Shown: in pieces, positions 4,751-62,146 of the stretch
Numbering within the stretch: the stretch's first letter is position 1
How the letters are laid out: every line of letters begins with the position of its first letter
Source of the DNA: Octopus vulgaris
Lineage: Eukaryota
Length of the DNA stretch: 64,000 nucleotides
Direction of reading: 5' to 3'
NCBI GenBank assembly: GCA_951406725.2
Contig: OX597822.1
Span: forward strand, 67,084,001-67,148,000
Notes under the pieces: model-generated
The model's database searches: none
What the model was told of the DNA's origin: nothing
Seen by the model: only the letters and a program-made list of their open reading frames with translations
Made by a program: the position numbers and the translations under genes

Positions 4751-5396
4751 ATTAGTTGAATGAATTATCTTAGTATGGATAATTCGGTTAACCGATACCT
4801 GGGTAGCAAATTCACGTCAGAAAAACACAGTTGAAGCTACATGCCAAGGGCAGAGATCACATGCTTTCGTGTGGAAATTTGTGTGTTTTTTTAATACAAA
4901 TAAATGAAAGAATGGAGTTGAACGACGATTTAACAAAATTCCTTTATTCTCGACATATGTTTCGAAGGCTGCATATTCCTAATTCTTATATATATACACA
5001 CACATAGGCACTCAATCACAAAAGCAAACAACACATCACCATTCATATGATTTGCACCCTATCACCTTCCTATTCTTAGATCTCTCCCCTCCAACCTTGT
5101 TTGAACCCTTGAACTTTCTAGAATCTTCTACATTCAACCATTTTTGACGTCACTGCTTATAACGGAATATTTTAAAGAAACACTCATTATCGCTATGGGC
5201 TCCGTGTGGGCAGTCATCTAAGAGTTTTTGTTCATCTTGATGCTGAATTAAGTTCCTTGTTTTTCCTGATGAGAAGGCGGCATAATGCACCCCTTATTCC
5301 TTCGAAATTAGGAATATGCAGCCTTCGAAACATATGTCGAGAATAAAGAAATTTTGTTAAATCGTCGTTCAACTCCATTCTCTCATTTATTTGTAT
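4751..5396. mobile_element. Penelope-like-type insertion with inverted arm and hammerhead, between (TA)n tracts
   Basis: ~4894-4984 is the reverse complement of ~5306-5395; hammerhead at 5261-5343; head motif ttaaccgatacctgggtagcaaa shared with the element at 53447-53788. Confidence 0.7.
5261..5343 (+). ncRNA. Minimal type I hammerhead ribozyme, intact core, long stem II
   Basis: ttttc-CTGATGA-gaaggcggcata...tatgcagccttc-GAAA-catatg-TC-gagaa; stem III is the palindrome catatg. Confidence 0.75.
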
Positions 5397-5525: not shown

Positions 5526-6513
5526 AAGGCACGGAGCTGGCAGACTCGTTAGCACGCCGGGCGAAATGCTTAGCCGCATTTCGTCTACTGCTACGTTCTG
5601 AGTTCAAATTCCGCCGAGGTCGATTTTGCCTTTCATTCTTTCGTGGTCGATTAAATAAGTACCAGTTACGCACTGGGGTCGATGTAATCGACTTAATCCG
5701 TTTGTCTGTCCTTGTTTGTCCCTTCTGTGTTTAGCCCCTTGTGGGTAGTAAAGAAATGGGTATTTCGTCTGCCTGCGAGGTCGACTTTGCCTTTCATCAT
5801 TTCGGAGTCGATTAAATAAGTACCAGTTACGCATTGGAGTCGATGTAATTTACTTAATCCCTTTGTCTGTCCTTGTTCGTCCCCTCAATCTTTAGCCCCT
5901 TGTGGGCAATAATCAAATAAGAAATGTTAGCACGCCGGGTGAAATACTTAGGGGTATTTCGTCTGCTGCTATGTTTTGAGTTCAAATTCCGCCGTGGTTG
6001 ACATTGCCTTTCATCTTTTCAGGGTCGATTAAATAAGTACCAGTTACGCACTGGAGTCGATGAAATAACCTTAATCCGTTCGTCTGTCTTTGTTTGTCCT
6101 CTCTGTGTTTAGCCCCTTGTGGGTAGTAAAGAAATAGGTATTTCGCCTGTCTTTACCTGCTGAGTTCAAATTCCACTGAGGTCGACTTTGCCTTTCATCC
6201 TTTCGGGGTCGATAAATTACGTACCAGTTGCGCTCTGGGGTCGAGGTAATCGACTTAATACCTTTGTCTATTCTTGTTTTTCCCCTCTATGTTTAGCCCC
6301 CTGTGGGCAATAATGAAATAAGAAACGTTAGCACGCCAGGCAAAATGCTTAGCGGTATTTTGTATGTCTTTACGTTCTTAGTTCAATCTCCGCTGAGGTC
6401 AACTTTGCCTTTCATCCATTCTGGGTCGATAAATTAAGTATCAGCTGAGTATTGTGGTTGATTTAATCGACTAGCACCCTCTCCATAAATGTGTTCTTAG
6501 AGTAGAAAAGAAT
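5526..6513 (+). mobile_element. SINE family A, tandem array of ~5 units
   Basis: A-box-like gctggcagactcg, B-box gagttcaaattc; central gtcgactttgcctttcatcctttcggggtcgat..aagtaccag repeated 5 times; ends tagagtagaaaaga. Confidence 0.9.
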
Positions 6514-11572: not shown

Positions 11573-11579
11573 TGTGTAC

Positions 11580-11880
11580 GAAGGCTATTGATTTAGTGGT
11601 TACAGTTTCCGGCTCCCGATCATAGGGTCCCGAGTTCGATTTCCGCGCAAGATACTTTATTTCACGTTGCTCCAGTCCACGCACCTGGCAAAAATCAGTA
11701 GTACCTGTATTTTAAGGGGCCAGCCTTGTCACATTCTGTGTTACGCTGAATCTCCCTGAAAATTATGTTAAGGGTACACATGTCAGTGGAGTGCTCAACC
11801 ACTTGCACGTTAAACTCAAGAGCAAACTGTTCCGTAGATCGGATCGGCTGGAACCCTCGTTGTCGTAAGGGACGGAGAGG
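11580..11880 (+). mobile_element. tRNA SINE, D-like head with tail E
   Basis: tagtggtta..gagttcgatt, gcaagatactttatttcacgttgctccag; tail ...ggaaccctcgttgtcgtaagggacggag also at 47291 and 54102. Confidence 0.7.
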
Positions 11881-12168
11881 CGGTTATTTCTGAAGGTGCC
11901 TGGCTTAGTGTTTAAGGTGTTGCAATCACGATTGCAAGATCGTGTGTTTGATTCCCAGACCATGAATTTAATGTCGATCTGATGGATATTTGCAAAGTGT
12001 TGAACAGCATATGGGCACCGGTATTAAGCAAGGATAGGAGAATACTAGATTTATAAGCCCTAAAATTCACTACATAATTGCCCACGGGCATATGAAGTAG
12101 TTTTTAAGAGCGCGGGCTACTAACCCCCCAGATTCCGAGTTCAATTGTAGGCAGTGATCTGAATAATG

Positions 12169-12248
<80 letters not shown>

Positions 12249-12294
12249 AAGAAGAAGAAGAAGAAGAAGAAGAAGAAGAAGAAGAAGAAGAAGA

Positions 12295-12972
12295 AATATT
12301 ACAAGTAACTGCAGAATATGTGGAGATGGACATGAAACAATAAATCATATTATCTCTAGCTGCCCAGTCTTGGCTAAGAAGGAATATATTCACAGACATG
12401 ACAGAGTTGGAACCTACATACATTGGAAGCTATGCCAACATTATGGAATAACAACAGAAAAAAGATGGTATAGGCACACACCAGAAAAGGTCACAGAAAA
12501 CGAGAAAGCAACCATACTCTGGGATATGCCGATACACACAGATAGAGAAATTAAGGCCAACAGACCAGATATAGTTGTCAGAGATCATGAAGAAAAAAAT
12601 GCTTTCTAATTGATGTATCAATACCGGCTGATGACAACGTGTCTCTAAAAGAAATGGAGAAACTCTCAAAATACAAAGACCTGGAAATAGAGGTAACTAT
12701 AATGTGGAATCTGAAAACAGAAACAATTCCTATCATAGTAGGTGCATTAGGCATGATAAAAAAATATTCAGACAAATACATAACAAAAACACCAGGACTT
12801 ACAAACACATATAACATACAGAAAATTGCACTACTAGGCACTGCACACATCCTACGCAGAACACTTTCCATACAATAACCATCAGAGCATCACAACAAAT
12901 CACAGCACATACCCAAGGCACACAGAGCTGTGCTCGGTAGTGAAGTGAAAGCACGCTATAAAAATAAAACTA

Positions 12973-12975
<3 letters not shown>
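12295..12975 (+). mobile_element. 5'-truncated R4/Dong-clade non-LTR retrotransposon (CCHC zinc knuckle, restriction-like endonuclease, 3' UTR)
   Basis: CRICGDGHETINHIISSC, RHDRV, ILWD, NRPDIVV, then after a 1-nt slip in a poly-A run at ~12600 CFLIDVSIP..KEMEKLSKYKDL..IPIIVGALG..TAHILRRTL; (TAA)n(GAA)n upstream and (TAA)n downstream. Confidence 0.9.
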
Positions 12976-13004
<29 letters not shown>

Positions 13005-13005
13005 G

Positions 13006-13039
<34 letters not shown>

Positions 13040-13054
13040 TAACAATAATAATAA

Positions 13055-13144
<90 letters not shown>

Positions 13145-13211
13145 CAACAACAACAACACAACATCGAAAAAATACCTTAGGAATGAGAACCCAGGTTCGA
13201 AATTTCCCCAA

Positions 13212-13257
13212 GACACCTGATGAAGCCTGGAGAGTATATCAGCCGAAACGTTGTGTT
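13212..13257 (+). ncRNA. Minimal hammerhead ribozyme in the SINE H tail
   Basis: gacac-CTGATGA-agcctg(gagagtatat)cagcc-GAAA-cg-TT-gtgtt; palindromic aacgtt at stem III. Confidence 0.7.
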
Positions 13258-13348
13258 GTCAACAAACAAGATGAGGACAAATATCCGTCAATTGTAAATA
13301 ACTTAAATAATGTACATAATTACTCAGCTCTTAAATATAGAACTGTAT

Positions 13349-13770
13349 AGACGAAATACCTGTTTCTTTATTACCCACAAGGGGCTAAACATAGAGGGGA
13401 TAAACAAGGACAGACAAACGGATTAAGTCTATTACATCAACCCTAGTGCGTAACTGGTACTTAATTTATCGACTCTGAAAGGAAGAAAGGCAAAGTCGAC
13501 CTCGGCGGAATTTGAACGTAACGGCAGACAAAATACCTATTTCTTTACTACCCACAAGGGGCTAAACATAGAGGGGACAAACAAAGACAGACAAACGGAT
13601 TAATTCGATTACATCGATCCCAGTGCTTAACTGGTACTTATTTAATCGACCTCGAAAGGATGAAAGGCAAAGTCGATCTCGGCGGAATTTGAACTCAAAA
13701 CGTAACCGCAGACGAAATACCACGAAGCACTTCGCCTGGCGTGCTAACGTTTCTGCCAGCTCGCCGCCTT
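13349..13770 (-). mobile_element. SINE family A, tandem dimer plus partial unit
   Basis: Reverse complement of family A units; head ends ctcgccgcctt at 13770. Confidence 0.9.
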
Positions 13771-13796
13771 GCATATATTCATGTGTTGTTTTGCCT

Positions 13797-14118
13797 GCAC
13801 TTGTTTCAGTGATTGAATTTGGGCCGCGGTAAGGTGCTTCCTCGAAGGATTTAGACTTAAAAATAGATCCGAGTATTTATTTTCAAGTTTAATGCTTATA
13901 GTATTGTCGTGGTTTTATTTTGTCGAACTGTTAATCCAAGGGGACGTAATCAAGCCAACATCGTTTACAAACAGTGGGGGATTAATAGAGAAATAGATAT
14001 TCATACACACACATACAAATATATACATACATTCACAAACACATATGAATATATACGGGACGGGTTTCCACATAGATTTCTAGCGAATCTACTCGGAAGG
14101 TTTTGGTTGGCCCTGAAG
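13797..14118 (-). mobile_element. Old diverged SINE family B relative
   Basis: acttgtttcagtgattg tail; ggggacgtaatcaagccaacatcg; CA/TA tract; aaggttttggttggccc. Confidence 0.5.
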
Positions 14119-15787
14119 TCACACACATCTTTTACGATATTCTAACGATTCTGTCAAGCTATCTCGAGCAACCGCTTTAATGATGATATTCATTTTCACT
14201 TGGAGGATGCAAGATCGCTTCTGAAATGAACCATTTTTTGGATTTGATCGCAGAAGATAATTCCTGCTATTGTATTCTGCAATGAATTTGTCTGGTGCTC
14301 AAACTATCCACCGTTTAATCGCTTGTTGAATTTTATAAAATATACTATATCCCTCAATAGAGAGTGAAACTTTTTTTATTTTCTATCCGTTAATGTATAA
14401 ATCGATCAGGATATTGCGCTGACTTCAATTCACAACTATAAATATAAGTATTTAAATGTTTAATGAAACGTAATATATTACAGCAAAGAATGCATAAAAT
14501 AATAATAAAAAAAAACAAATTGTACGTTACTTGAATTTTAATTTGTAAGAGAACAAGTTTGGTATATTGATACATTAGCAAATGTAATTACATTAAAACT
14601 CTATAACATACTACTGTAAAAACTCAAATCAGACATTCTGGCACCTGGACTAGTAATTAAAAAAATATTATGCAAACGAATGCAGCATGTTTATAGCTGC
14701 CAACTAAAAGATGCAACCAGTGAAAGCTACGAAATAAAATAGGAATGTTTTCGAGTAGTATGATTTTTATGTAGGAAATAGATTTGTCTTTTACCTAGAG
14801 TATAAGGAAATCAGAGTACCGTGCTCTAAACTGCTGCATTCATAAACTAAGCATTCGATGTTACAATTCGCTACTAAGTTTCGACGAAATTTAAACAGTA
14901 TGAAGATGGTGAGTCCCAGAGTTGGTGTTGGTGATAGTACAGAAGCTAGTGAGATAGTATTAAAAGCAGTTATCTTATTATGTAGGCTAATAGTTATAGG
15001 AAGAAACAATGTTTGCTTGTATAACATGGGTGTAGTAAGAAGTATGGACTTTTTAGTTCCTAAAATAGAACAATTATAAAATAGTAAGAGGGTTAATACC
15101 TCATTCAGTGTTTTTAAAAAGAACAATGTTTTAGAGAAGCAAAAGTCGGCGGGCGCTTTTCGTCTTCTCCCATCCTTATCATTCTTGTATCATTATCATT
15201 CATCTCATTAATGCCCGTGACCAGCCCGCAAGCTACCTTACTCTATGTTCTGCCTTTATGGCAAATTTAATAAAGTAAAGAAGTATGGTGTTGGTGATGA
15301 CAGTCATGTGATTTATTTAGATAGCTTGTTATGATTTGTGAAATATTTCGCTTCTATTTCTAGCATAACCTGGTAATCGGGTACTTGGTCCTTAGTTGGA
15401 TAGAAAAAGGGCGACGATAGGAAAAGAGGAAGTGAATTAGCTAGTTTTCTGAATAGAAGTTTACTGACTTATAGCAGGGTAAATTAGAATGATGTTATCA
15501 TGTTTGCAATGATGGTGGGGCTCATTGTAATGATGATGATGTTGGTGGTGGTGATGGTCTAACAGTTGTGGTGGTGGTAATGGCGGTGATGATGACGACG
15601 ATGGCGATGAAATAAAATGCTGAGTGTGATATTGGACATTGTAGTGGTAGGAGTAAGAAATCTCACTTGCTGGCGGCATTTTTTTTATTGTAGTTAATAA
15701 AATCTGTAAGCGGCTAATAAGATATCCAGGCAATAGAGATATTTCTGTAGTCAGCTATTTGGTAGTTTAGTAGTAAAAACTACAGCG

Positions 15788-15802
15788 ATGCTGCTGCTGC
15801 TG

Positions 15803-15859
<57 letters not shown>

Positions 15860-15903
15860 TTACTACTACACGTGTTGTTGTTGCTGGTGGTGGTGGTGGT
15901 GGT
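15788..15903. repeat. Compound trinucleotide microsatellite (CTG)(CTA)(TTG)(GTG)
   Basis: Direct inspection. Confidence 0.95.
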
Positions 15904-16500
15904 GTTCCTGCTCGTCACTACTACTGTAAGAACAGCTGTAGCAGTTATAATGGAGCTATTGATAATGTTAATGATATTATAATGTTTTATTATGACACGA
16001 TAATTATGATACTATTATAGTAATTATGATATTAATTTAGGTGATATAAATCATAATATCGATTTCCTAAGCTGTAAAAGAAAAAGTGAGGAGCCAGTAT
16101 TACAGATTTAATCGACGATAGTTCAAGGCTGATAATTATTTTGTATCAAGCGTAGTGACTAAGTGGGGAATTAATTGGCCAGGGTTTGAGTTGGAACATC
16201 GCGTGAAATGAATAAACATTAGAGGGGCCAACGATAGGGGATGTATGTGGTTTACTCATCCTGCTGAAGATAGCAACATAATCTCCCTCGAATCACATTC
16301 TAAAGTTTTGAGAAAGAAGTGAAACATTATTTAATGATGTTCTAAGTATATAAAACAAACATGTGTGTGTACTCTTGGTCGATTGAACTGGGGTCATCCC
16401 AGGTTAGCGGTCCCACAGGTGTCATCGTGCCTAGAGCCGTCCATGTCGACCAGTGCCCCAACTCCATCAGTGGCGGTTCTGTACCTGCCCTTATACATCC

Positions 16501-16550
<50 letters not shown>

Positions 16551-18414
16551 GAACTCTCCCATCATTAGACGACGCATGAGAGTTCGCCAATTTCTTACCG
16601 GACAACTACACAGATGATTTATTTATAGTGATCCAATGTTTGTGTAGACATAATCTCACTCCATCCATCAGATCGACATTACATTCCCGGGAATGTAATA
16701 TCGATCTGATGTCTTTACAAGGTCGAATTTGCCCTTCATCCTTTTGGGGTGGATAAATTAAGCATCAATTGCGTACAAGGGCCGTACGAGGGGGATAGTA
16801 TTATACCACGTGGGATATTAAGGCTGCTGCCTAATTTCATATGTAACCAGCTTGGTTGTAGCATTTTGCACAACAAAGGATTTAACATTGTTAGAAAAAA
16901 TTACTGACGAGCAAGTGCCATACTGCGAATGAGGGTATCTATCCAAGACAAATTGTATGTAATACATCGTGGAATAAGATTATCTGTTCTACTCTATCCA
17001 AAGAGCACACCATTTATGTTCATATTTCAGAGTCTACATTACATTATTGTAATGGAGAACTTTCTTGAATGGTCAGAGTGGAGCTGGTTATCTATAGGGA
17101 TGATAGAGCATCACTTCTAGAGTCTGTATGGCTAGTGTTTTCTCAAGGTGTGTTTGGGAATTGAGGATATACGGAATGTGGATGTAGAAAGTACTGAGAA
17201 GCTGACGCATGCATAGATTGCAATCACAGTTTCGGTTAAGCTGGAGAAATAAGAATGGCGGAGGTTACTCTGAATCATATCGTTTTTGGTAAATCAGTAA
17301 TCTTTTTTTTATCAACCAAAAAGTCAAGTAGGAAGTTGTACAATATGAAGTCAAAATAAAAGTGGACACTCGTTGTAACGAATTTACATTTCTTGTTGGA
17401 ATTGGAGCGTTTCTAAAACCTCAGCGGTCAGATATTTATTATTCATGATTTTGAGATTGCAACGGCTGAACACTATATAAATATAAGTATAGCTTTCGTT
17501 ATTTTTTATATTTTGCATTTCAGAAATAAGCATAGAATGGCTAAATGCGGCGATTCGGAAAAACAATTGAGGCAAAATTAATATTGTACTTTAGACAGGT
17601 AACAAGGGAAGCAACTGAGAAACGTTTCTGCCATTAGATTTCATCGTTCGAATTTATATAGATTTCGTTATATTTTTCTGTTTCATGATGATGATGGTGA
17701 TGATGATTATGATTTCGATTATGGGAGAAGCGATAACGTGCACTATCATATATTGTGATGTTTTTTAATTATGAAATTTTCAATCCGTCGCTGTTTTAGA
17801 CTGATATTTATAGTTGCACTATATATTTTAACAATGCTGTGTTTCTTTTCTCTATATTTTCTACAAGGCATAGAGAAGTAAATTTATATATTTTGCTGTT
17901 ACAGCTGCAACATTGTTCTTTTTGTTGTTTGTTTTTAAATTTTTGCTGAGTTCGGAATTGATAATGTGCGATTCCTTGTTATTGTATTATTTGTTGCTAT
18001 ACTTGCCGGTCTAACTGTTGTTATTTATGCTTTCCCTATTGTTTCTTCAGTTGTTTTGCAGTATTCATTGATTTACTTCTGGGATCTCCATTCGAAAGTT
18101 TTCGATTTTGCGGTTGTGTGGTCTTCTTGTTTATTGTTTATATTGTTCCTGTTATGGTCCTACTGTAATGATGGATCGATGTTTAGAGAGATATTCTATT
18201 CTCGGCAAATATGCTTGCATACAGCGTAACATAAATTACACTAACTTTCTTCTTCCACTAAATTCGCCCCTTAATTTTGGTTATGCCGTATCTCAATGTC
18301 TTCATATCAAATACAGTGCTGATGGGATAGATGTCGAAATTAGCGAGCAAACATGCGATCGCTGGTCTCCCGGTGTATTTCACTTGCTTTGTATACCATG
18401 TATTAGTATCATAT

Positions 18415-18763
18415 CCGTGAAGGCAAATGGCTCAGTGGCTAGAGCGTAGAGCTTACGATCGTGAGGTTGTGAGTTCGATTCCTGGACCGGCCTGTGTGTT
18501 GTGTTCTCGTGCAAGACGCTTTATTTCACGCTGCTGCAGTTAACTCAGCTGTAGAAATGAGTTGCGACGTCACTGGTGCCAAGCTGTATTGGCCCCTTTG
18601 CCTTTCCCTTGGATAACATCAGTGGTGTGGAGAGGGGAGGCTAGTATACATGGGCGACTTTTAACCTTCCACAAACAATCTTGCCGAGACTTGTGCCTCG
18701 GAGGGTAACTTTCTAGGTGCAGTCCTATGGTCATTCATGACCGAAGGGGGTCTCCTCATCCTC
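18415..18763 (+). mobile_element. tRNA SINE family D with 13-bp target-site duplication
   Basis: A box tggctcagtgg, B box gagttcgattc; TSD attagtatcatat at 18402-18414 and 18764-18776. Confidence 0.9.
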
Positions 18764-18957
18764 ATTAGTATCATATGCACTGATATAGTGTTTTTGTTGC
18801 GCGTGTCTATTCGGAGACGGTTATACACTCAATTCATGAACATTTGGTCCACCACTCTACTGAAGGGATCAATCGCCTGTAGTGTTGCTTCGCTGCTTGA
18901 AATCTTTGCTGTGCTGCTCGGGTCGTTGCTGCGCTGCCCGGGATCGTTGCTGCATCA

Positions 18958-19305
18958 TAGCCATGTGTTTAGAGGAATTCTTTGGGGTTTGAATAATTCG
19001 CCTCTGGAAACATGGGTGTTTCATTCAACATCCTTAAACATGGGTGTTTCATTCAACATCCTTAAACAACTCTTATTCAGTGACCTTTTGAGCAGGATGG
19101 GCTACTCAACCAAAAGAAAATTCTAACTGGGCCCCACATGCAAAGTCATGCGCTGTATATCGTGATACGAGGTCACCATGTCGCGTACACATGGTTGTGA
19201 TGCATGTGCCTTATCAGACTGGTAGTCGTGATGGGTATATCGGGCTTCGTATATTTGTAACCCAGCGTCACTTTGATAGCGCACTGCTCTCTCACACAAC
19301 AACAA
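18958..19305 (+). repeat. Unclassified interspersed-repeat-like segment ending in (CAA)n(TAA)n
   Basis: GC-richer block with an exact 28-bp tandem duplication (19008-19063), running into a trinucleotide tract. Confidence 0.4.
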
Positions 19306-19313
19306 TGACAACG

Positions 19314-19392
<79 letters not shown>

Positions 19393-19421
19393 TAATAAAT
19401 TTGATAAATTTGATAAAACAA

Positions 19422-20028
19422 GAAACCATCTCGTCTCGGGAAGTCCTGTGCTGACACCAAACGAATCGAAAAATGTGGTATGAACATCATCCTGAGCCAG
19501 TCGTTGAAGGTAAAAATGTCAGTATCCTCTGAGATTTTACAGTCGACACCTACAGGACGATTCAAGATAATCGACCAGACATAGTCAATAAAGACAATGA
19601 AGAAAATACTTGGAGACTAATAAATGTAAATGTTCCCACAGATAAACATATATTTGTAAAGGAATTTGAGAAATTAAGTAAAAATACAAAGGGTGTAGCA
19701 TCTTAAACCAAGAACTGTTCCTGTTAGGTGGGCGCCCTTGGTATAGGAATGAGATGTCGGAAACATCTAGATAATATCCCAGGAGAATCATGTCTCAGCG
19801 GAATCCAAAAGATTGTGCTGACAAGTACAGCGCACATCCTTAGTAAAACCCTATTAATTCAAATGTATGTGTTGTATTACATGAAGTTATTTCGATAGTG
19901 CCCCTAAAACTTGCCCTCCTCAAGCTTTCTGTCATTATGTAACATCTCTTATCCGTCACTCTCCCTAGGACGCTGGGTGTGTTTCGGCGAGTGATTGTAA
20001 CAAACATGCAGATTGAAATTAAAAAATA
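19422..20028 (+). mobile_element. Second, older R4/Dong-type LINE 3' fragment
   Basis: Reads NHLVSGSPVLTPNE / WYEHHPEPVVEGKNVSIL*DFTVDTYRTIQDNRPDIV..KEFEKLSK / VGALG / IQKIVLTSTAHILSKTL; follows a (TAA)n tract. Confidence 0.8.
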
Positions 20029-20928
20029 CATACATACATACATGAAAACATTCTTATTTTTGCACCGAGACAATAAAGATCCAAAAACATTGTTCTTTAA
20101 TTATTTTTTTTTCTTTTGATTAAGCTATATTTCTGCTAAGATAATAATTCAGAGTCGCACACAGCTACTAAGTCCCGTCTCCACTCTCGCTATATATACT
20201 ACTCAGATATGATGATTACAGAGGTTGTTTCTGTTTGGTAGTGATATTAAAATTACCGGTCTCTCTGTTCAGACAATAAAATATCAGTGTTAGCTATGTA
20301 GTTATTATCTTGTTGCCGCCATTTTTTATTCACCGAAACTGTCGAAATTTTTTATTAGTACTAGAATTGTTTGATCTAGAAATGTATCACCTATCCATTA
20401 CAGAGACTCTCTATATATATATTGAATTACCAGATTAACTTTTATGTAATTCATTTACAATCTCTGTAATTTAATTTTTTTTCCATTTCATAATCTACAT
20501 TTTTTACCATACGGCTAAAAATCTCTGACAACATAAATTTGTATATATCAAATGGCAATCATCATATCCTCCTTAACGGGAATATATTATCAAAGTAGTG
20601 CCAAATACTGTTGTATTCGCTTTGAAAGACCCTTTCATATAGATGTACGGTGCTTAAAAGCACTGACATATATCATAATAGACGAGAACCGTCTGGTACT
20701 GGCACTGGGGATGCTAGATCACTGGATTTCAAAATGCTATATATACTTCAGTGGCAGGCATGGATCACTGTATAGCAGCCACAGCTCACTGCTAATGACA
20801 TATAGAATAACAGTGATTTTCCAGTGACTAATGTGACAAATAGGCAGCAGGCTAATAAGGATATAAATATTGGCTACAGAAACAGTACCAAAAAAACAAT
20901 CTTCATATCCTTTAATTATGGATGTATT

Positions 20929-21261
20929 GAGACCCCTTTCGGTCATGACTGACTGTGGGATTGCACCTAGAAAGTTACCCTCCGAGGCACAAGTCTGGGC
21001 AAGGTTGTTTATGGAAGGCCAGCAGTCGCCCATGCATACCGGCCTCCCCTCTTCACGCCACCAGTGTTATCCAAGGGAAAGGCAAAGGCCGATACAACTT
21101 GGCACCTGTGACGTCGCAACTCATTTCTACAGCTGAGTGAATGGAACAACGTTAAATAAAGTGTCTTGCTCAAGAACGCAACACGCAGCTCGGGCCGGGA
21201 TTCGAACTGACAACCTCACGATCGAAAGCTTGACGCTCTAACCACTGAGCCATGCGCCTTC
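20929..21261 (-). mobile_element. SINE family D
   Basis: Reverse complement of 18415-18763; candidate TSD atgtatt at 20922-20928 and 21262-21268. Confidence 0.9.
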
Positions 21262-21411
21262 ATGTATTATTAGAGGGCCAAATACTGCGATAATAGCATC
21301 GAGAGATTCTCTCATATAGATTTATGGTACGTGAAAACACTGGAATACAAGCAGGCGACACTTTTCTGATAGGGTCACTGGGACTGGCATATCACGTGAT
21401 TTCAATGTATC

Positions 21412-21577
21412 GTACATTATTTATGTTATTTACACTCGACGGATATTTGTCTTCATCTTGTTTCTTGTTAAAAGAACGTTTCACCTCAAATACCCTCCAG
21501 CCTTCTTCAGGTGTCTTGGGGGAAACTTTTGAACCTGGGTTCTCATTCATAAGGTATTTTTGATGATGTTGCTGTTG

Positions 21578-21615
<38 letters not shown>

Positions 21616-21703
21616 GTTCAGATCACTGCTTGGAATCGAACTCGGAATCTTGGGGTTAGTAGCCCGCGCGCTTAACCACTATGCCATATGCCCGAGGGCA
21701 TAT
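21412..21703 (-). mobile_element. SINE family H, uninterrupted copy
   Basis: Minus strand: tgccctcgggca hairpin, A box tggcatagtgg, B box gagttcgattc, (AAT)n(AAC)n, then gacac-CTGAAGA..GAAAcgtt (21470-21515). Confidence 0.8.
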
Positions 21704-21834
21704 CTAGAATAGAGAGAACTGTATTCAATGTATTGTGCTTTATCAGTAGCCCGCGCTCTTAACCACTATGCCATATGCCCGAGGGCATATCTAGAATAGA
21801 GAGAACTGTATTCAATGTATTGTGCTTTATCAGT
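21661..21834. repeat. 87-bp tandem duplication
   Basis: 21661-21747 and 21748-21834 are near identical. Confidence 0.95.
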
Positions 21835-35553: not shown

Positions 35554-35911
35554 CTGTAGATATAATATGTGACGATTATTCGGTAGCCATGATGAAACTC
35601 CCAGTTTCGGATGACGGGGCAGAAACCCGCGCCGCCATCTCTTCATTTATCCGGCCATCGAAAAAATGCTATGAAAATGACCGTTAAACAAAGGGAAATT
35701 ACTGTGTGATTGACTGTTATTAAGACAAAAGAGCTATTAGATTGACGGTCAATCACACAGTAATTTCCCTTTGTTTAACAGTCATTTTCATAGCAGTCAT
35801 TTTTCGATGGCCGGATAACTGAAGAGATATCGGCGTTGGTTTCTGCCCCGACATCCGAAACTCGGAGTTTTATCATGGCTACCGAATAATTGTCACATGT
35901 ATTTACAGATA
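35552..35911. mobile_element. Foldback element (~165-bp arms) with a hammerhead in each arm
   Basis: 35552-~35720 is the reverse complement of ~35740-35911; left end abuts (TA)n. Confidence 0.85.
35814..35874 (+). ncRNA. Minimal hammerhead ribozyme
   Basis: gataa-CTGAAGA-gatatcgg...ccgacatc-c-GAAA-ctcggag-TT-ttatc; the mirror copy on the minus strand (~35588-35652) has ATGAAGA. Confidence 0.7.
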
Positions 35912-43009: not shown

Positions 43010-43434
43010 AAGGCGGCGAGCTGACAGACACGTTAGCACCCAGGGCGAAATGCTTAGCGGTATTTCGTCTGCGTTAAGTTGTGAGTTCGAATTCCGCCGA
43101 GGTCGACTTTGCCTTTCATCCTTTCGGGGTCGATAAATTAAGTACCAGTTACGCACTGGGGTCGATGTAATCGACTTAATACCTATGTCTGTCCTTGTTT
43201 GTCCCCTCTGTGTTTAGCCCCTTGTGGGTAATAAAGAAATAGGTATTTCGTCTGCCGCTGCGTTCTGAGTTCAAATTCTGCCGAGTTCGACTTTGCCTTT
43301 CATCCTTTCGGGGGTCGATTAAATAAGTACCAGTTACGCACTGGGGTCGATATAATCGATTTAATCCGTTTGTCTATCCTTATTTGTCCCCTCTGTGTGT
43401 AGCCCCCTTGTGGGCAATAAAGAAATAGGCATTT
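43010..43434 (+). mobile_element. SINE family A dimer
   Basis: Head aaggcggcgagctg; two central-domain units. Confidence 0.9.
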
Positions 43435-43639
43435 CTCTCAATTCTTCAAACAACTTCATCAATGATTATCACGTAAATATCAGAAGATATACCACAGCAA
43501 CTACAGTACAAGGAACCACAGAGGCACATTACGTGGTTACTGAGACTGCAAGGAATCATTATTTTCACTCACTGCATTCTTTGAATAAAGTTAACGTGTA
43601 ATGTGCTTTATTTCTTTATTGCCCTTTAGATATATTTGT

Positions 43640-43821
43640 TATTTCTTTATTGTCCACTAGGGGCTAAACATAGAGGGGACAAACAAGGACAGACAAACGG
43701 ATTAAGTTGATTACGTCGATCCCAGTGCGTAACTGGTACTTATTTAATCGACCCCGAAACGATTAACGGCAAAGTCGACCTCAGCGGAATTTGAACTCAC
43801 AACGTAACGGCAGACGAAATA
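43640..43821 (-). mobile_element. SINE family A headless unit
   Basis: Reverse complement of one repeat unit. Confidence 0.9.
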
Positions 43822-46301: not shown

Positions 46302-47290
46302 TTATACATGCATATATATGTGTGTGTCTGTGTGTATATCTGTGTAAGTATAGATGGATGGATGGATGGATGGATGGCGGTTATGTTTCTATAAGAGTGT
46401 ATTTGTGTCGATGTACTCTACGTATGTAAACGTGTGAATGTTTTCTTTGGGTACAATTTAAGCCATACAATTGCGTACATAATAACGTCAACTACGTTCT
46501 CTTAGTCATCCTTACATCAAATTTACACTTTCTAAAACGCTTGTTTTTCAATGAATGGTTTCTACACTTCTTGCTAAAGTTCACCAAATTCTGCTGCAAA
46601 GGGCTTGAAAGCAAAAGTAATTTCCACACGCTTATTTTTTCAAATAAATCTATCACCGTATATTACTGCAGACCACCCTATGTGTTCAAGTCGAAATAAC
46701 AGGTATAGATGACATTGTTGTATTTGAACTATGTACAAATACGAGACACGAAATATTTTAAACTTTTCAAATAGATATACATTTGTTTCTGGCAATTCAG
46801 TATATTCAAATCATTTAATAATAATGATGAACCAGCATCTGTCATGTTCGTTATCTTCAGAATCTGTCATGTTCGTTAAGTTCAGTATAGTCACGTACAT
46901 GTGTATAAGGTATTTGGTTAAGGAAGGGCTGGGAAGTTCAAATGCTTGACAGTTTTACGGACGCAAAAGCACAAATTCTCATTTCTGAAGACAAGGATAG
47001 AATTAGTAAGAATCTCAGTGCATTCAACTGAAAAGAAACACTATTGTCTGTCTTGCTGACAGCCAAAATATCACGTGATCAATATGAATTCCAGTAACCA
47101 TGCTGATATAATTTCTCTCAGCATTTTGTAAGGCTACGCTATTTAGTCGTGTTTAAGCCCTTTTAACCTTTAAATGTCTTAATTCGTCGGAGGCGTCTGA
47201 TGAAGTAATCAACGGACTACAATGCTAACGGCATGGTTGCCAAGATAGCAGCGATTTTTGTTATTGTCTGTGAGTACATCCATGTAATAA

Positions 47291-47585
47291 GTGGCACTCC
47301 CTCGGTTATGACGAAGAAGGTTCAAGCTCATCCGATTGGCAGAGCAGCCTACCCTTGAAATTGATGTGCGAGTGGCTGAAGGCTCCAGAAACATGCATAC
47401 CCTTAACGTAGTTCTCAGGGACATTCAGCATGACACAGAATGTGATGATTGCAGCTACAACACGTTGGACTAGAACAACGTGTAATAAAGTGTCTTGCCT
47501 AAGGAAAGAACGCGCCGTCAGGAATTGAACTCACGATCTTACGATTGTCAGCTGAATACCCTAAACACAAAGCCATACGCCTTCC
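47291..47585 (-). mobile_element. tRNA SINE, D-like head with tail E (diverged)
   Basis: Reverse-complement similarity to 11580-11880. Confidence 0.65.
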
Positions 47586-47674: not shown

Positions 47675-48102
47675 TTTTCTGCTCTAGGCACAAGGCTCAA
47701 AATTTTGGGGGAGAGGGGCAGTTGATTAGATCGACAATAGTATGCAACTGGTATTTAATTCATCGACCCCGAAATTATGAAAGGCAAAGTCGACCTCGGC
47801 GGAATTTTAGCTCAGGACGTAAAGACAGACGAAATAACACTAAACGTTCGCCCGGCGTACTAAAGTTTCTTATTTTTTTATTGCCCACAAGGGGCTAAAC
47901 ACAGAGGGGACAAACAAGGATAGACAAACGGATTAAGTCGATTACATCGACTCCAGTGCGTAACAGGTACTTATTTAATCGACCCCGAAAGGATGAAAGG
48001 AAAAGTTGACCACGGCGGACTTTGAACTCAGAACGTAACGGCAGATGAAATACCGCTAAGCATTTCGCCCGGCTTGCTAACGTTTCTGCCAGCTCGCCGC
48101 TT
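47675..48102 (-). mobile_element. SINE family A dimer
   Basis: Two units; head ends ctcgccgc. Confidence 0.9.
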
Positions 48103-49851: not shown

Positions 49852-50090
49852 ATTTCTTATTTCTTTATTGCCCACTAGGGGCTCAACATAGAGAGGACAA
49901 ACAAGGACAGACAAAGGGATTAAGTCGGTTACATAGACACCAGTGCGTAACTGGTACTTATTTAATCGACCCCGAAAGGATGAAAGGCAAAGTCGACCTC
50001 GGCGGAACTTCAACTCAGAACGTAGCGGTAGACGAAATACGGCTACGCATTTCGCCCGGCGTGCTGACGTTTCTGCCGGCTCACCGCCTT
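49852..50090 (-). mobile_element. SINE family A monomer
   Basis: Reverse-complement copy. Confidence 0.9.
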
Positions 50091-55303: not shown

Positions 55304-55691
55304 CTTTTCTACTCTAGGCTCAAGGATCGGAATTTTGGGGGAGGGGTCCAGTCGATTGGATCGACACCAGTACGCAACTGGTACTTAATCTATCGACCCC
55401 GAAAGGCAAGTCAACCTCAACGGAATTAGAACTCAGAACGTAGCGGCAGACGAAATACCTATTTCTTTACTACCCACAAGGGGCTAAACACAGAGAGGAC
55501 AAACAAGGACAGACAAACGGATTAAGTCGATTATATCGACCCCAGTGTGTTACTGGTACTTATTTAATTGCCCCCGAAAGGATGAAAGGCAAAGGCAACC
55601 TCGGCGGAGTTTGAACTCAGAACGTAACGGCAGACGAAATACGGCTACGCATTTCGCCTGGCGTGCTAACGTTTCCGCCAGCTCGCCGCCT
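55304..55691 (-). mobile_element. SINE family A dimer with 18-bp flanking direct repeats
   Basis: tcacaatctag(a/g)aataat at 55286-55303 and 55692-55709. Confidence 0.9.
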
Positions 55692-57767: not shown

Positions 57768-57813
57768 TCTTACTGCTGTTTCGGGAATATCAAGGACATC
57801 CCATCATCAGGGA
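57768..57813 (-). ncRNA. Minimal hammerhead ribozyme (core intact, weak stem I)
   Basis: Minus strand: tcc-CTGATGA-tgggatgtc(ctt)gatattccc-GAAA-cagcag-TA-aga. Confidence 0.6.
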
Positions 57814-57859
57814 TGATACGAGAGAGTTAAACAGAAGGAAATAGTAGAGATCAATATAA

Positions 57860-61953: not shown

Positions 61954-62146
61954 ACGTAAGGCCATAACACGTTGGATGTAACAGTGCTCGTACGACTACC
62001 GAAGCTAAGCAACATCAAGCCTAGTTAATCCTTAGATGGGTGACTGCTTTGGAAACTTAGTTGCTGTAGGCATCTCACACTCTATTGGTAGTACTCCAGC
62101 ATGGTCACATCCTTAGAGCTTAAAGGTATAACAGAATAAAAGAATA
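61954..62146 (+). mobile_element. 5S rRNA-derived SINE, second copy
   Basis: taaggccataacacgttg..ctcgtacga..accgaagctaagcaac..gcctagttaatccttagatgggtgactg..tgctgtaggcat, then gtactccagcatggtcaca..gaataaaaga. Confidence 0.8.

What the first reader, a model, noticed from the sequence alone, without database searches (positions are those of the whole stretch)
12076..21703. Chimeric SINE: Pol III tRNA head + (TAA)n + hammerhead-ribozyme tail (two copies)
Seen: copies at 12076-13347 (+) and 21412-21703 (-) are colinear. Each has a short 5' hairpin (tgccc-nn-gggca), a tRNA-like head (A and B boxes clearest in the second copy), an (AAT)n(AAC)n tract, and a tail with gacac-CTGAnGA-stem-GAAA-cgtt. Known: SINE tails normally derive from the partner LINE; minimal hammerheads with palindromic stem III mark Penelope-like pLTRs; schistosome SM-alpha is a precedent for Pol III plus hammerhead repeats. 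Inference: this may be a SINE mobilised by Penelope-like machinery, or one that self-cleaves to define its 3' end or to circularise. I do not know of such a family being described in cephalopods.
Basis: partly seen in the sequence, partly recalled or inferred. Interest (0 to 1): 0.78.

Follow-up and report, generated by a model that had tools for sequence, protein, structure and literature searches.

The report
Penelope retrotransposon with tRNA-derived promoter
These two repeats are short copies of a protein-coding Penelope-type jumping gene whose front end is a borrowed piece of a transfer-RNA gene that likely acts as its promoter, an arrangement typical of non-coding SINE parasites.

Summary
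The repeat is real: thousands of copies genome-wide, head linked to tail in 77 of 90 unbiased loci. It is not a separate SINE family. Head+(AAT)n+tail is the pseudo-LTR of an autonomous Penelope-like element (RT + GIY-YIG, about 2.6 kb). The 'tail' is the first ~55 codons of its ORF, with a minimal hammerhead inside. Penelope-type insertion is shown: head-to-head copies, 8-15 bp target duplications, and the terminal ~30-40 nt on only one arm in 116 of 134 pairs. The unusual part is the tRNA-Arg-like head. Of 57 copies that reach it, 43 end there (about 4% expected). Some head-started copies run on into the ORF, and the coding strand has no shared TTTT run. So RNA polymerase III likely transcribes the whole element from this head, and the SINE-like copies arise when the RT primes near the RNA's 5' end. 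Pol III activity and ribozyme cleavage are untested; RNA reads were uninformative. The window copies are damaged and not colinear: copy 1 holds a 680-bp Dong/R4 insert and begins in the Penelope ORF; copy 2's hammerhead is broken.

The parts
12001..12056 (+). 3' end of the Penelope-like ORF (GIY-YIG C-terminus, ...RILDL then stop TAA 12054-12056)
12057..12085 (+). 29-nt spacer between ORF stop and head; ends in hairpin arm TGCCC (12079-12083) and 2-nt loop; inferred transcription start lies at -7 to -3 of the head
12086..12161 (+). copy 1 tRNA-Arg-like head; A box mutated (contains T5)
12162..12295 (+). (AAT)n then (AAG)25 microsatellite
12296..12975 (+). later insertion: 5'-truncated Dong/R4-type LINE (zinc knuckle and restriction-like endonuclease end, 3' UTR); 98.5-98.8% identical to four other copies
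   Evidence: clade name from recalled motifs
12976..13164 (+). (AAT)n(AAC)n tract
13168..13345 (+). copy 1 'tail' = first ~55 codons of the Penelope ORF (candidate ATG 13183), ending at the long RT start site
13212..13257 (+). minimal type I hammerhead motif, one mismatch in stem II; predicted cleavage after 13252
21619..21693 (-). copy 2 tRNA-Arg-like head with A and B boxes
21694..21703 (-). hairpin loop and fold-back arm (snap-back letters, not the master's upstream letters)
21562..21618 (-). (AAT)n(AAC)n tract
21412..21561 (-). copy 2 tail ending at the short RT start site; hammerhead relic at 21470-21515 with broken stems
21704..21723 (+). short inverted piece resembling the long tail end (second arm of a head-to-head insertion)
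   Evidence: read from sequence
21724..21733 (-). 10-bp target-site duplication, left copy (right copy 21401-21410)
21658..21834 (.). local 87-bp tandem duplication covering the 5' junction and first 46 nt of the head

Best explanation
The repeat is the terminal repeat (pLTR) and 5' end of an autonomous Penelope-like retrotransposon, and its tRNA-Arg-derived head is likely an internal RNA polymerase III promoter for the whole element. Shown: the unit is head, (AAT)n, ORF (its first codons carry the hammerhead), stop, 29 nt, head again; copies insert with Penelope signatures; 5' ends pile up at the head. Inferred: Pol III starts 3-7 nt before the head and reads a T4-free RNA of about 2.6-2.9 kb. 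The RT primes inside the RNA at one of two sites about 30-40 nt apart. Priming at the first copy of these sites, about 300 nt from the 5' end, gives the short SINE-like copy; priming at the second gives long, mostly 5'-truncated copies. At the RNA's end the cDNA snaps back on a 5-bp hairpin or joins a second cDNA, giving head-to-head insertions. The template is mostly uncleaved; the hammerhead is likely a weak, dimer- or protein-dependent ribozyme. How the RNA is translated is unexplained.
For: Head follows the ORF end in 27 of 30 ORF-anchored loci. A complete copy, partial head-AAT-tail-ORF-head-tail, is L520. L423 and L435 start at the head, have unrelated flank upstream and run into the ORF. 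Tail peptide matches N-termini of relatives P0019/P0114. Tail on exactly one arm in 116 of 134 head-to-head pairs, 67 expected, p=4e-19. Target duplications of 8 bp or more in 65 of 128, control mean 2.75. Of 126 unique tail-anchored arms, 57 reach head position 10 or earlier; 43 end there and 14 continue into the ORF; 3.6-4.9% expected. Among 69 head-start copies, letters -8..-10 are fold-back in 18 and master in 0. A and B boxes are intact in the majority of 117 heads not chosen by the head pattern. T4+ runs: 49 in 139 kb of ORF copies (0.35/kb), none shared by more than 16% of copies, against 2.6/kb in 46 control Penelope loci. B-box C56 intact in 115 of 130 head-start against 47 of 68 ORF-linked copies, p=0.0016, with no such difference at G57 or other CpGs (post hoc).
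Against: No transcript end was seen: three RNA runs were unstranded, 71-78% of laid reads ran into unlike flanks, and no start or end pile fell at the head or the cleavage site. T4 depletion is moderate per copy (p 0.008-0.36 by copy and null model), and 2 of 16 control families also had none in the representative ORF, though both have T4 in their 3' repeat. A hairpin sits exactly at the pile-up and could itself stop the RT. The one dissected Penelope promoter is LINE-like with Inr/DPE and an intron (PMC2377424). An uncapped Pol III RNA is a poor mRNA (own knowledge). Copies are not fully independent (segmental duplicates, two arms of one insertion). Long copies inspected carry stops or frameshifts.
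Confidence: 0.62

Rival explanations
1. Ordinary Pol II-transcribed Penelope element that once captured a tRNA-SINE piece in its pLTR as a passenger. The 5' pile-up comes from the RT stalling or snapping back at the hairpin and tRNA-like fold, or from RNase P-like cutting of a longer RNA in front of the head.
For: The pile-up coincides with the hairpin; fold-back junctions are common in genomic copies and in RNA reads (323-410 reads per run at position -7). Several control elements have TATA-like motifs before the hammerhead. D. virilis Penelope has a LINE-like internal promoter.
Against: No head-start copy keeps master letters at -8..-10 (0 against 18). The head does not fold as a tRNA (ARAGORN none; z=0.28), which argues against RNase P. 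A passenger would not explain the lack of shared T4 runs or the C56 asymmetry.
Confidence: 0.22
2. One reading: a distinct non-autonomous SINE family. Dispersed short copies are themselves transcribed by Pol III and moved in trans by the Penelope protein, while the autonomous element is expressed otherwise.
For: Short copies outnumber ORF-linked ones (69 against 20 of 89; 2862 head against 842 ORF-end 23-mers). A short copy has promoter and RT start sites, so it could be a template. Internally deleted tandem units exist (L415, L421, L424). Non-autonomous derivatives of these elements are in print (10.64898/2026.07.22.740005).
Against: No variant is confined to short copies; the G/T, A/T and A/A types at H64/T54 occur in both classes and divergence is alike (49 long, 118 short). 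Head-started copies also run into the ORF.
Confidence: 0.13
3. A retrozyme-like element in which hammerhead cleavage sets the RNA ends or makes circles that are the transposition intermediate.
For: Core motif intact in the majority of 58 copies. 11 of 85 5' ends inside the tail fall at T84-89, 5.7 expected, p=0.026 for that pre-chosen window.
Against: Two other windows hold as many or more ends (13 and 12; chance of a peak of 11 or more anywhere 0.70). Most copies span the site uncleaved. The core is no better kept than its surroundings (0.945 against 0.923). 3' ends are not at the site. In the anole element cleavage is not needed for insertion in vitro (PMC11167929).
Confidence: 0.03

Closest known systems
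Penelope/Poseidon-type PLEs, e.g. Poseidon of Anolis carolinensis (PMC11167929, parts 1-2 of 4 read) and D. virilis Penelope (PMC2377424, passages)
   Same: Single RT + C-terminal GIY-YIG ORF, pLTRs, hammerhead overlapping the ORF start, two RT start sites bounding a 30-40 nt tail, inverted and tandem insertions (PMC8557442, passages).
   Different: Here the pLTR begins with a tRNA-Arg-derived A/B-box head and an (AAT)n tract, 5' ends pile up at that head, and the coding strand has no shared T4. No tRNA or Pol III promoter appears in the passages read.
Schistosoma Sm-alpha / Sj-alpha (as described in PMC6765202 and PMC2770079, passages; originals not held or not read)
   Same: tRNA-derived, apparently Pol III-transcribed repeat of SINE size with a hammerhead.
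   Different: Those are described as non-coding, often tandem, cut out of multimers by an active hammerhead and related to tRNA-Gln; no autonomous element with the same end is described in those passages. Here copies are dispersed or head-to-head, uncleaved, and are the end of a coding element.
Non-LTR retrozymes (PMC7229834, passages; bioRxiv 10.64898/2026.07.22.740005, parts 1-3 of 5 read)
   Same: About 300-nt hammerhead repeats derived from PLE pLTRs and proposed to use PLE enzymes.
   Different: Defined as tandem units giving circular RNA; no tRNA head described in what was read. Here mostly single or inverted pairs.
Octopus tRNA SINEs OK, OR1, OR2 (Ohshima and Okada 1994; not held)
   Same: tRNA-derived octopus repeats; an Arg origin for OR1/OR2 is recalled, not checked.
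   Different: OR1 and OR2 are cited as CORE-SINEs (PMC4824008, PMC4758252, passages); this unit has no room for a central domain between head and tract. Sequences could not be compared, so identity with one of them is not excluded.

Membership tests
Penelope-like elements (EN+, C-terminal GIY-YIG) | One ORF with RT followed by GIY-YIG endonuclease | tested here: met
   RVT_1 hits. Pfam GIY-YIG did not hit the octopus piece directly; its C-terminal part aligns (E 2e-13, 26%) over the Pfam GIY-YIG region of homolog P0066.
Penelope-like elements (EN+, C-terminal GIY-YIG) | pLTRs from partial tandem arrangement | tested here: met
   L520, L189, L200, L203.
Penelope-like elements (EN+, C-terminal GIY-YIG) | Inverted 5' copies and a 30-40 nt tail at one end only | tested here: met
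   116 of 134 pairs discordant, 67 expected.
Penelope-like elements (EN+, C-terminal GIY-YIG) | Minimal type I hammerhead motif in the pLTR | tested here: met
   Majority of 58 copies has the core, 5-bp stem I, 6-bp stem II, palindromic ACGT; Rfam does not detect it.
Penelope-like elements (EN+, C-terminal GIY-YIG) | Hammerhead self-cleavage | not testable with these tools
   Genomic 5' ends at the site inconclusive.
Penelope/Poseidon clade | No extra zinc-finger motif between RT and EN; placement in the clade's tree | tested here: inconclusive
   No extra motif seen by eye; no named reference sequences, no tree.
tRNA-derived SINE | tRNA-derived head with A and B boxes | tested here: met
   Best match tRNA-Arg among 30 host tRNA loci, which did not cover all isotypes; profile score above shuffles; boxes intact in majority.
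tRNA-derived SINE | Transcription by Pol III | not testable with these tools
   Indirect only; RNA reads uninformative.
tRNA-derived SINE | Separate non-coding lineage, distinct from its autonomous partner | tested here: not met
   The whole unit, head included, is part of the autonomous element; shared variants.
tRNA-derived SINE | 3' end from the partner's 3' end, finishing in a simple repeat | tested here: not met
   Tail is the partner's ORF start; the microsatellite is internal.
Non-LTR retrozyme | Direct tandem units each with a hammerhead | tested here: not met
   Mostly single or head-to-head; a few internally deleted tandem units.
Non-LTR retrozyme | Circular RNA | not testable with these tools
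   No suitable RNA data.

The most novel reading that the evidence does not exclude
A protein-coding, autonomous retrotransposon is transcribed end to end by RNA polymerase III from a captured tRNA promoter, and the same RNA yields both the full element and thousands of SINE-like copies because its RT primes internally. SINE and autonomous partner would be one transcription unit, the RT-endonuclease would be translated from an uncapped Pol III RNA, and a second case may exist in metagenome locus L455.
Probability: 0.45. Interest if true: 0.82.

Novelty: new variant of a known kind. Interest (0 to 1): 0.66.

Why it matters
The usual division is that autonomous retrotransposons use Pol II (or Pol I read-through) and only non-coding SINEs use tRNA-type Pol III promoters (own knowledge). 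An autonomous Penelope element with a tRNA promoter would break it, offer a route by which SINE-like hammerhead repeats such as Sm-alpha could arise, and pose a testable question about cap-independent translation. Apart from that, the copies give an in-genome record that fits the two RT start sites and two-strand priming reported in vitro for a Penelope protein. For annotation, thousands of octopus 'tRNA SINE' hits would in fact be Penelope ends.

Tried and rejected
Rfam on the whole window was swamped by microsatellite matches; targeted scans found no tRNA or hammerhead (gathering scan of 10 control loci none). ARAGORN found nothing in the window or on the head majority. Run search: no RNA holder listed; three raw RNA runs added by species label and two contig sets were laid and gave no transcript ends (one search was laid on the strand opposite to the element). 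An intron in the tail was considered and dropped because the frame runs open through it. An independent head-only SINE pool was not seen: 13 of 90 heads lack a tail within 800 nt, several through Dong insertions. A search of the genome with a distant Penelope protein returned only this family in 30 of 30 loci, so there is no same-genome control for T runs. Viral contigs held no relative. Covariation of the hammerhead was not tested because copies derive from near-identical masters. Earlier scan notes: none found.
Full report
Observation. Both copies are present and related (heads 84%, tails 85-86%). They are not colinear. Both are damaged: copy 1 in the A box, copy 2 in the hammerhead stems. 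The host genome has 2.8 Gb in 227 contigs; I infer an octopus from size and repeat make-up, without testing it.

Family size and linkage. Exact 23-mers occur 8135 times (hammerhead), 2862 times (head) and 842 times (ORF end), reversed controls 0; these are floors, since tails are about 91% identical to one natural copy. In the first 90 head matches on contig C1, 77 have the tail downstream within 800 nt. In 30 best head hits, 27 do.

What the unit belongs to. Upstream of some heads lies the end of a reading frame. Searching with it, 27 of 30 loci have the head next; the stop lies 29 nt before the head. Walking upstream gave an RT and complete elements. RT is detected by Pfam; the C-terminus aligns with the GIY-YIG region of a homolog but has no direct Pfam hit. 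The tail is in frame with the ORF in 5'-complete copies, and relatives from other assemblies carry a similar peptide at their N-terminus. The anole element also starts its ORF in the hammerhead and primes about 111-118 nt into the ORF (PMC11167929). So head+(AAT)n+tail is the pLTR, and also the 5' end, of an autonomous element.

How it inserts. Of 469 unique tail arms, 3' ends cluster at T134-153 and T175-178. In head-to-head pairs with both ends in range, 116 of 134 have one long and one short arm (67 expected, p=4e-19), the pattern described for these elements (PMC8557442). Of 128 such discordant pairs, 65 have an 8-15 bp target duplication (shuffled pairs: mean 2.75, maximum 7). Window copy 2 fits: short direct arm, inverted piece of the long end, 10-bp duplication.

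Where the RNA starts. From 140 tail-anchored loci, 126 unique arms remained after removing duplicates: 25 end in the tail, 32 in the tract or lack a head, 55 in the head, 14 continue into the ORF. Of the 57 that reach head position 10 or earlier, 43 end there; truncation rates inside the head and ORF predict 3.6-4.9%. Boundaries come from BLAST and are good to about 10 nt. Among 69 head-start copies the letters at -8..-10 follow a fold-back in 18 and the master in none, while the two loop letters mostly follow the master; the template end is therefore at about -7..-3. Of 30 loci chosen by the ORF's 5' part, two (L423, L435) begin at the head with unrelated flank and run into the ORF, three more begin inside the head, and one is a tandem junction. 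RNA that starts at the head therefore continues into the coding region.

Is the head a Pol III promoter? It is tRNA-derived, closest to tRNA-Arg among 30 host tRNA loci, with A and B boxes intact in the majority, but it no longer folds as a tRNA. A Pol III RNA cannot cross T runs (own knowledge; the run length needed in molluscs is unknown to me). In 171 ORF segments (139 kb, every position covered at least 20 times) there are 49 T4+ runs, none shared by more than 6 of 37 copies; the head and tail have none shared by more than 23 of 378. Controls were the 46 longest of 79 related metagenome loci: 2.6 runs per kb, 16 families, median 3.1 per kb; two family representatives had none in the ORF, both with runs in the 3' repeat. 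Single octopus copies give p from 0.008 to 0.36. This is moderate support. One post hoc result points the same way: B-box C56 is intact in 115 of 130 head-start and 47 of 68 ORF-linked copies (p=0.0016), while G57 (p=0.85) and other CpGs (p=0.08) do not differ (first seen as the top of 46 positions).

Separate SINE? Among 49 long and 118 short copies no variant was confined to short ones and divergence was alike. The simplest reading is that both come from the same masters. Trans-mobilisation of short copies is not excluded.

Hammerhead. The majority has the full minimal core, but it is no better conserved than neighbouring coding letters and folds only modestly better than shuffles (z=-1.46). 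Ends at the predicted site are slightly enriched but not the largest peak. Most templates were uncleaved. Low activity and dimer dependence are reported for such motifs (PMC4209133, part 1 of 4 read).

RNA. No indexed RNA holder was listed. Three raw runs gave thousands of reads, unstranded, mostly running into unlike flanks, with depth following genomic copy number and no start or end pile at head or cleavage site. They neither support nor refute.

Literature. Ten full-text searches listed no paper describing a tRNA or Pol III promoter in a Penelope element; I read listings and the passages cited, not all hits. The 2026 O. vulgaris repeat annotation counts 190 Penelope-like families but has no 'hammerhead' or 'ribozyme' in text or supplement; its sequence library, Repbase, Dfam and SINEBase were not available, and bioRxiv supplements were closed, so the family may already have a name. 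Sm-alpha is the nearest functional precedent. Ohshima and Okada 1994 and Ferbeyre 1998 were not held.

Verdict. Membership in Penelope-like elements is established (about 0.95). The Pol III reading is the best mechanism (0.62) and is the new part. Interest 0.66.

Noticed in passing
L455:2790-3050 (metagenome contig JGI1357J11328_10009043): Tandem Penelope-like element (2791-bp unit) with A-box- and B-box-like motifs and a short AAT run before its hammerhead; 6.4 bits against the host tRNA profile, no hit in 100 shuffles; two T4 runs and no T5 per unit. Possible second tRNA-headed element; Rfam finds no tRNA.
   Followed up: partly
window 12296-12975; L012, L038, L059, L107, L176, L237, L365, L376: Dong/R4-type LINE ends repeatedly sit in the (AAT)n tract of this element, so the pLTR microsatellite is a landing site; the window copy is 98.5-98.8% identical to four others and thus young.
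   Followed up: partly
L415, L420, L421, L424, L427, L428: Internally deleted units (tail, first 160-250 nt beyond it, then head or tail again) form short direct tandems with two hammerheads, resembling retrozymes.
   Followed up: no
window 57780-57825 (-), 35810-35865 (+), 5260-5315 (+): Other hammerhead-like motifs unrelated to this family; the one near 57810 has a long stem II; no Penelope ORF found near them.
   Followed up: partly
window 61954-62072 (+): 5S rRNA-like sequence above the Rfam gathering score (47.4 against 38 bits), probably a pseudogene or 5S-derived repeat.
   Followed up: no
window 13349-13694, 5602-6472, 43059-43815, 47725-48045, 49860-50014, 55350-55635: A ~170-185 bp repeat family, often in tandem, 85-92% identical; one array abuts the end of copy 1.
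   Followed up: no
window 11579-11890, 18418-18754, 20920-21265, 47286-47584: Other tRNA-headed SINE families with unrelated heads flank both copies.
   Followed up: no
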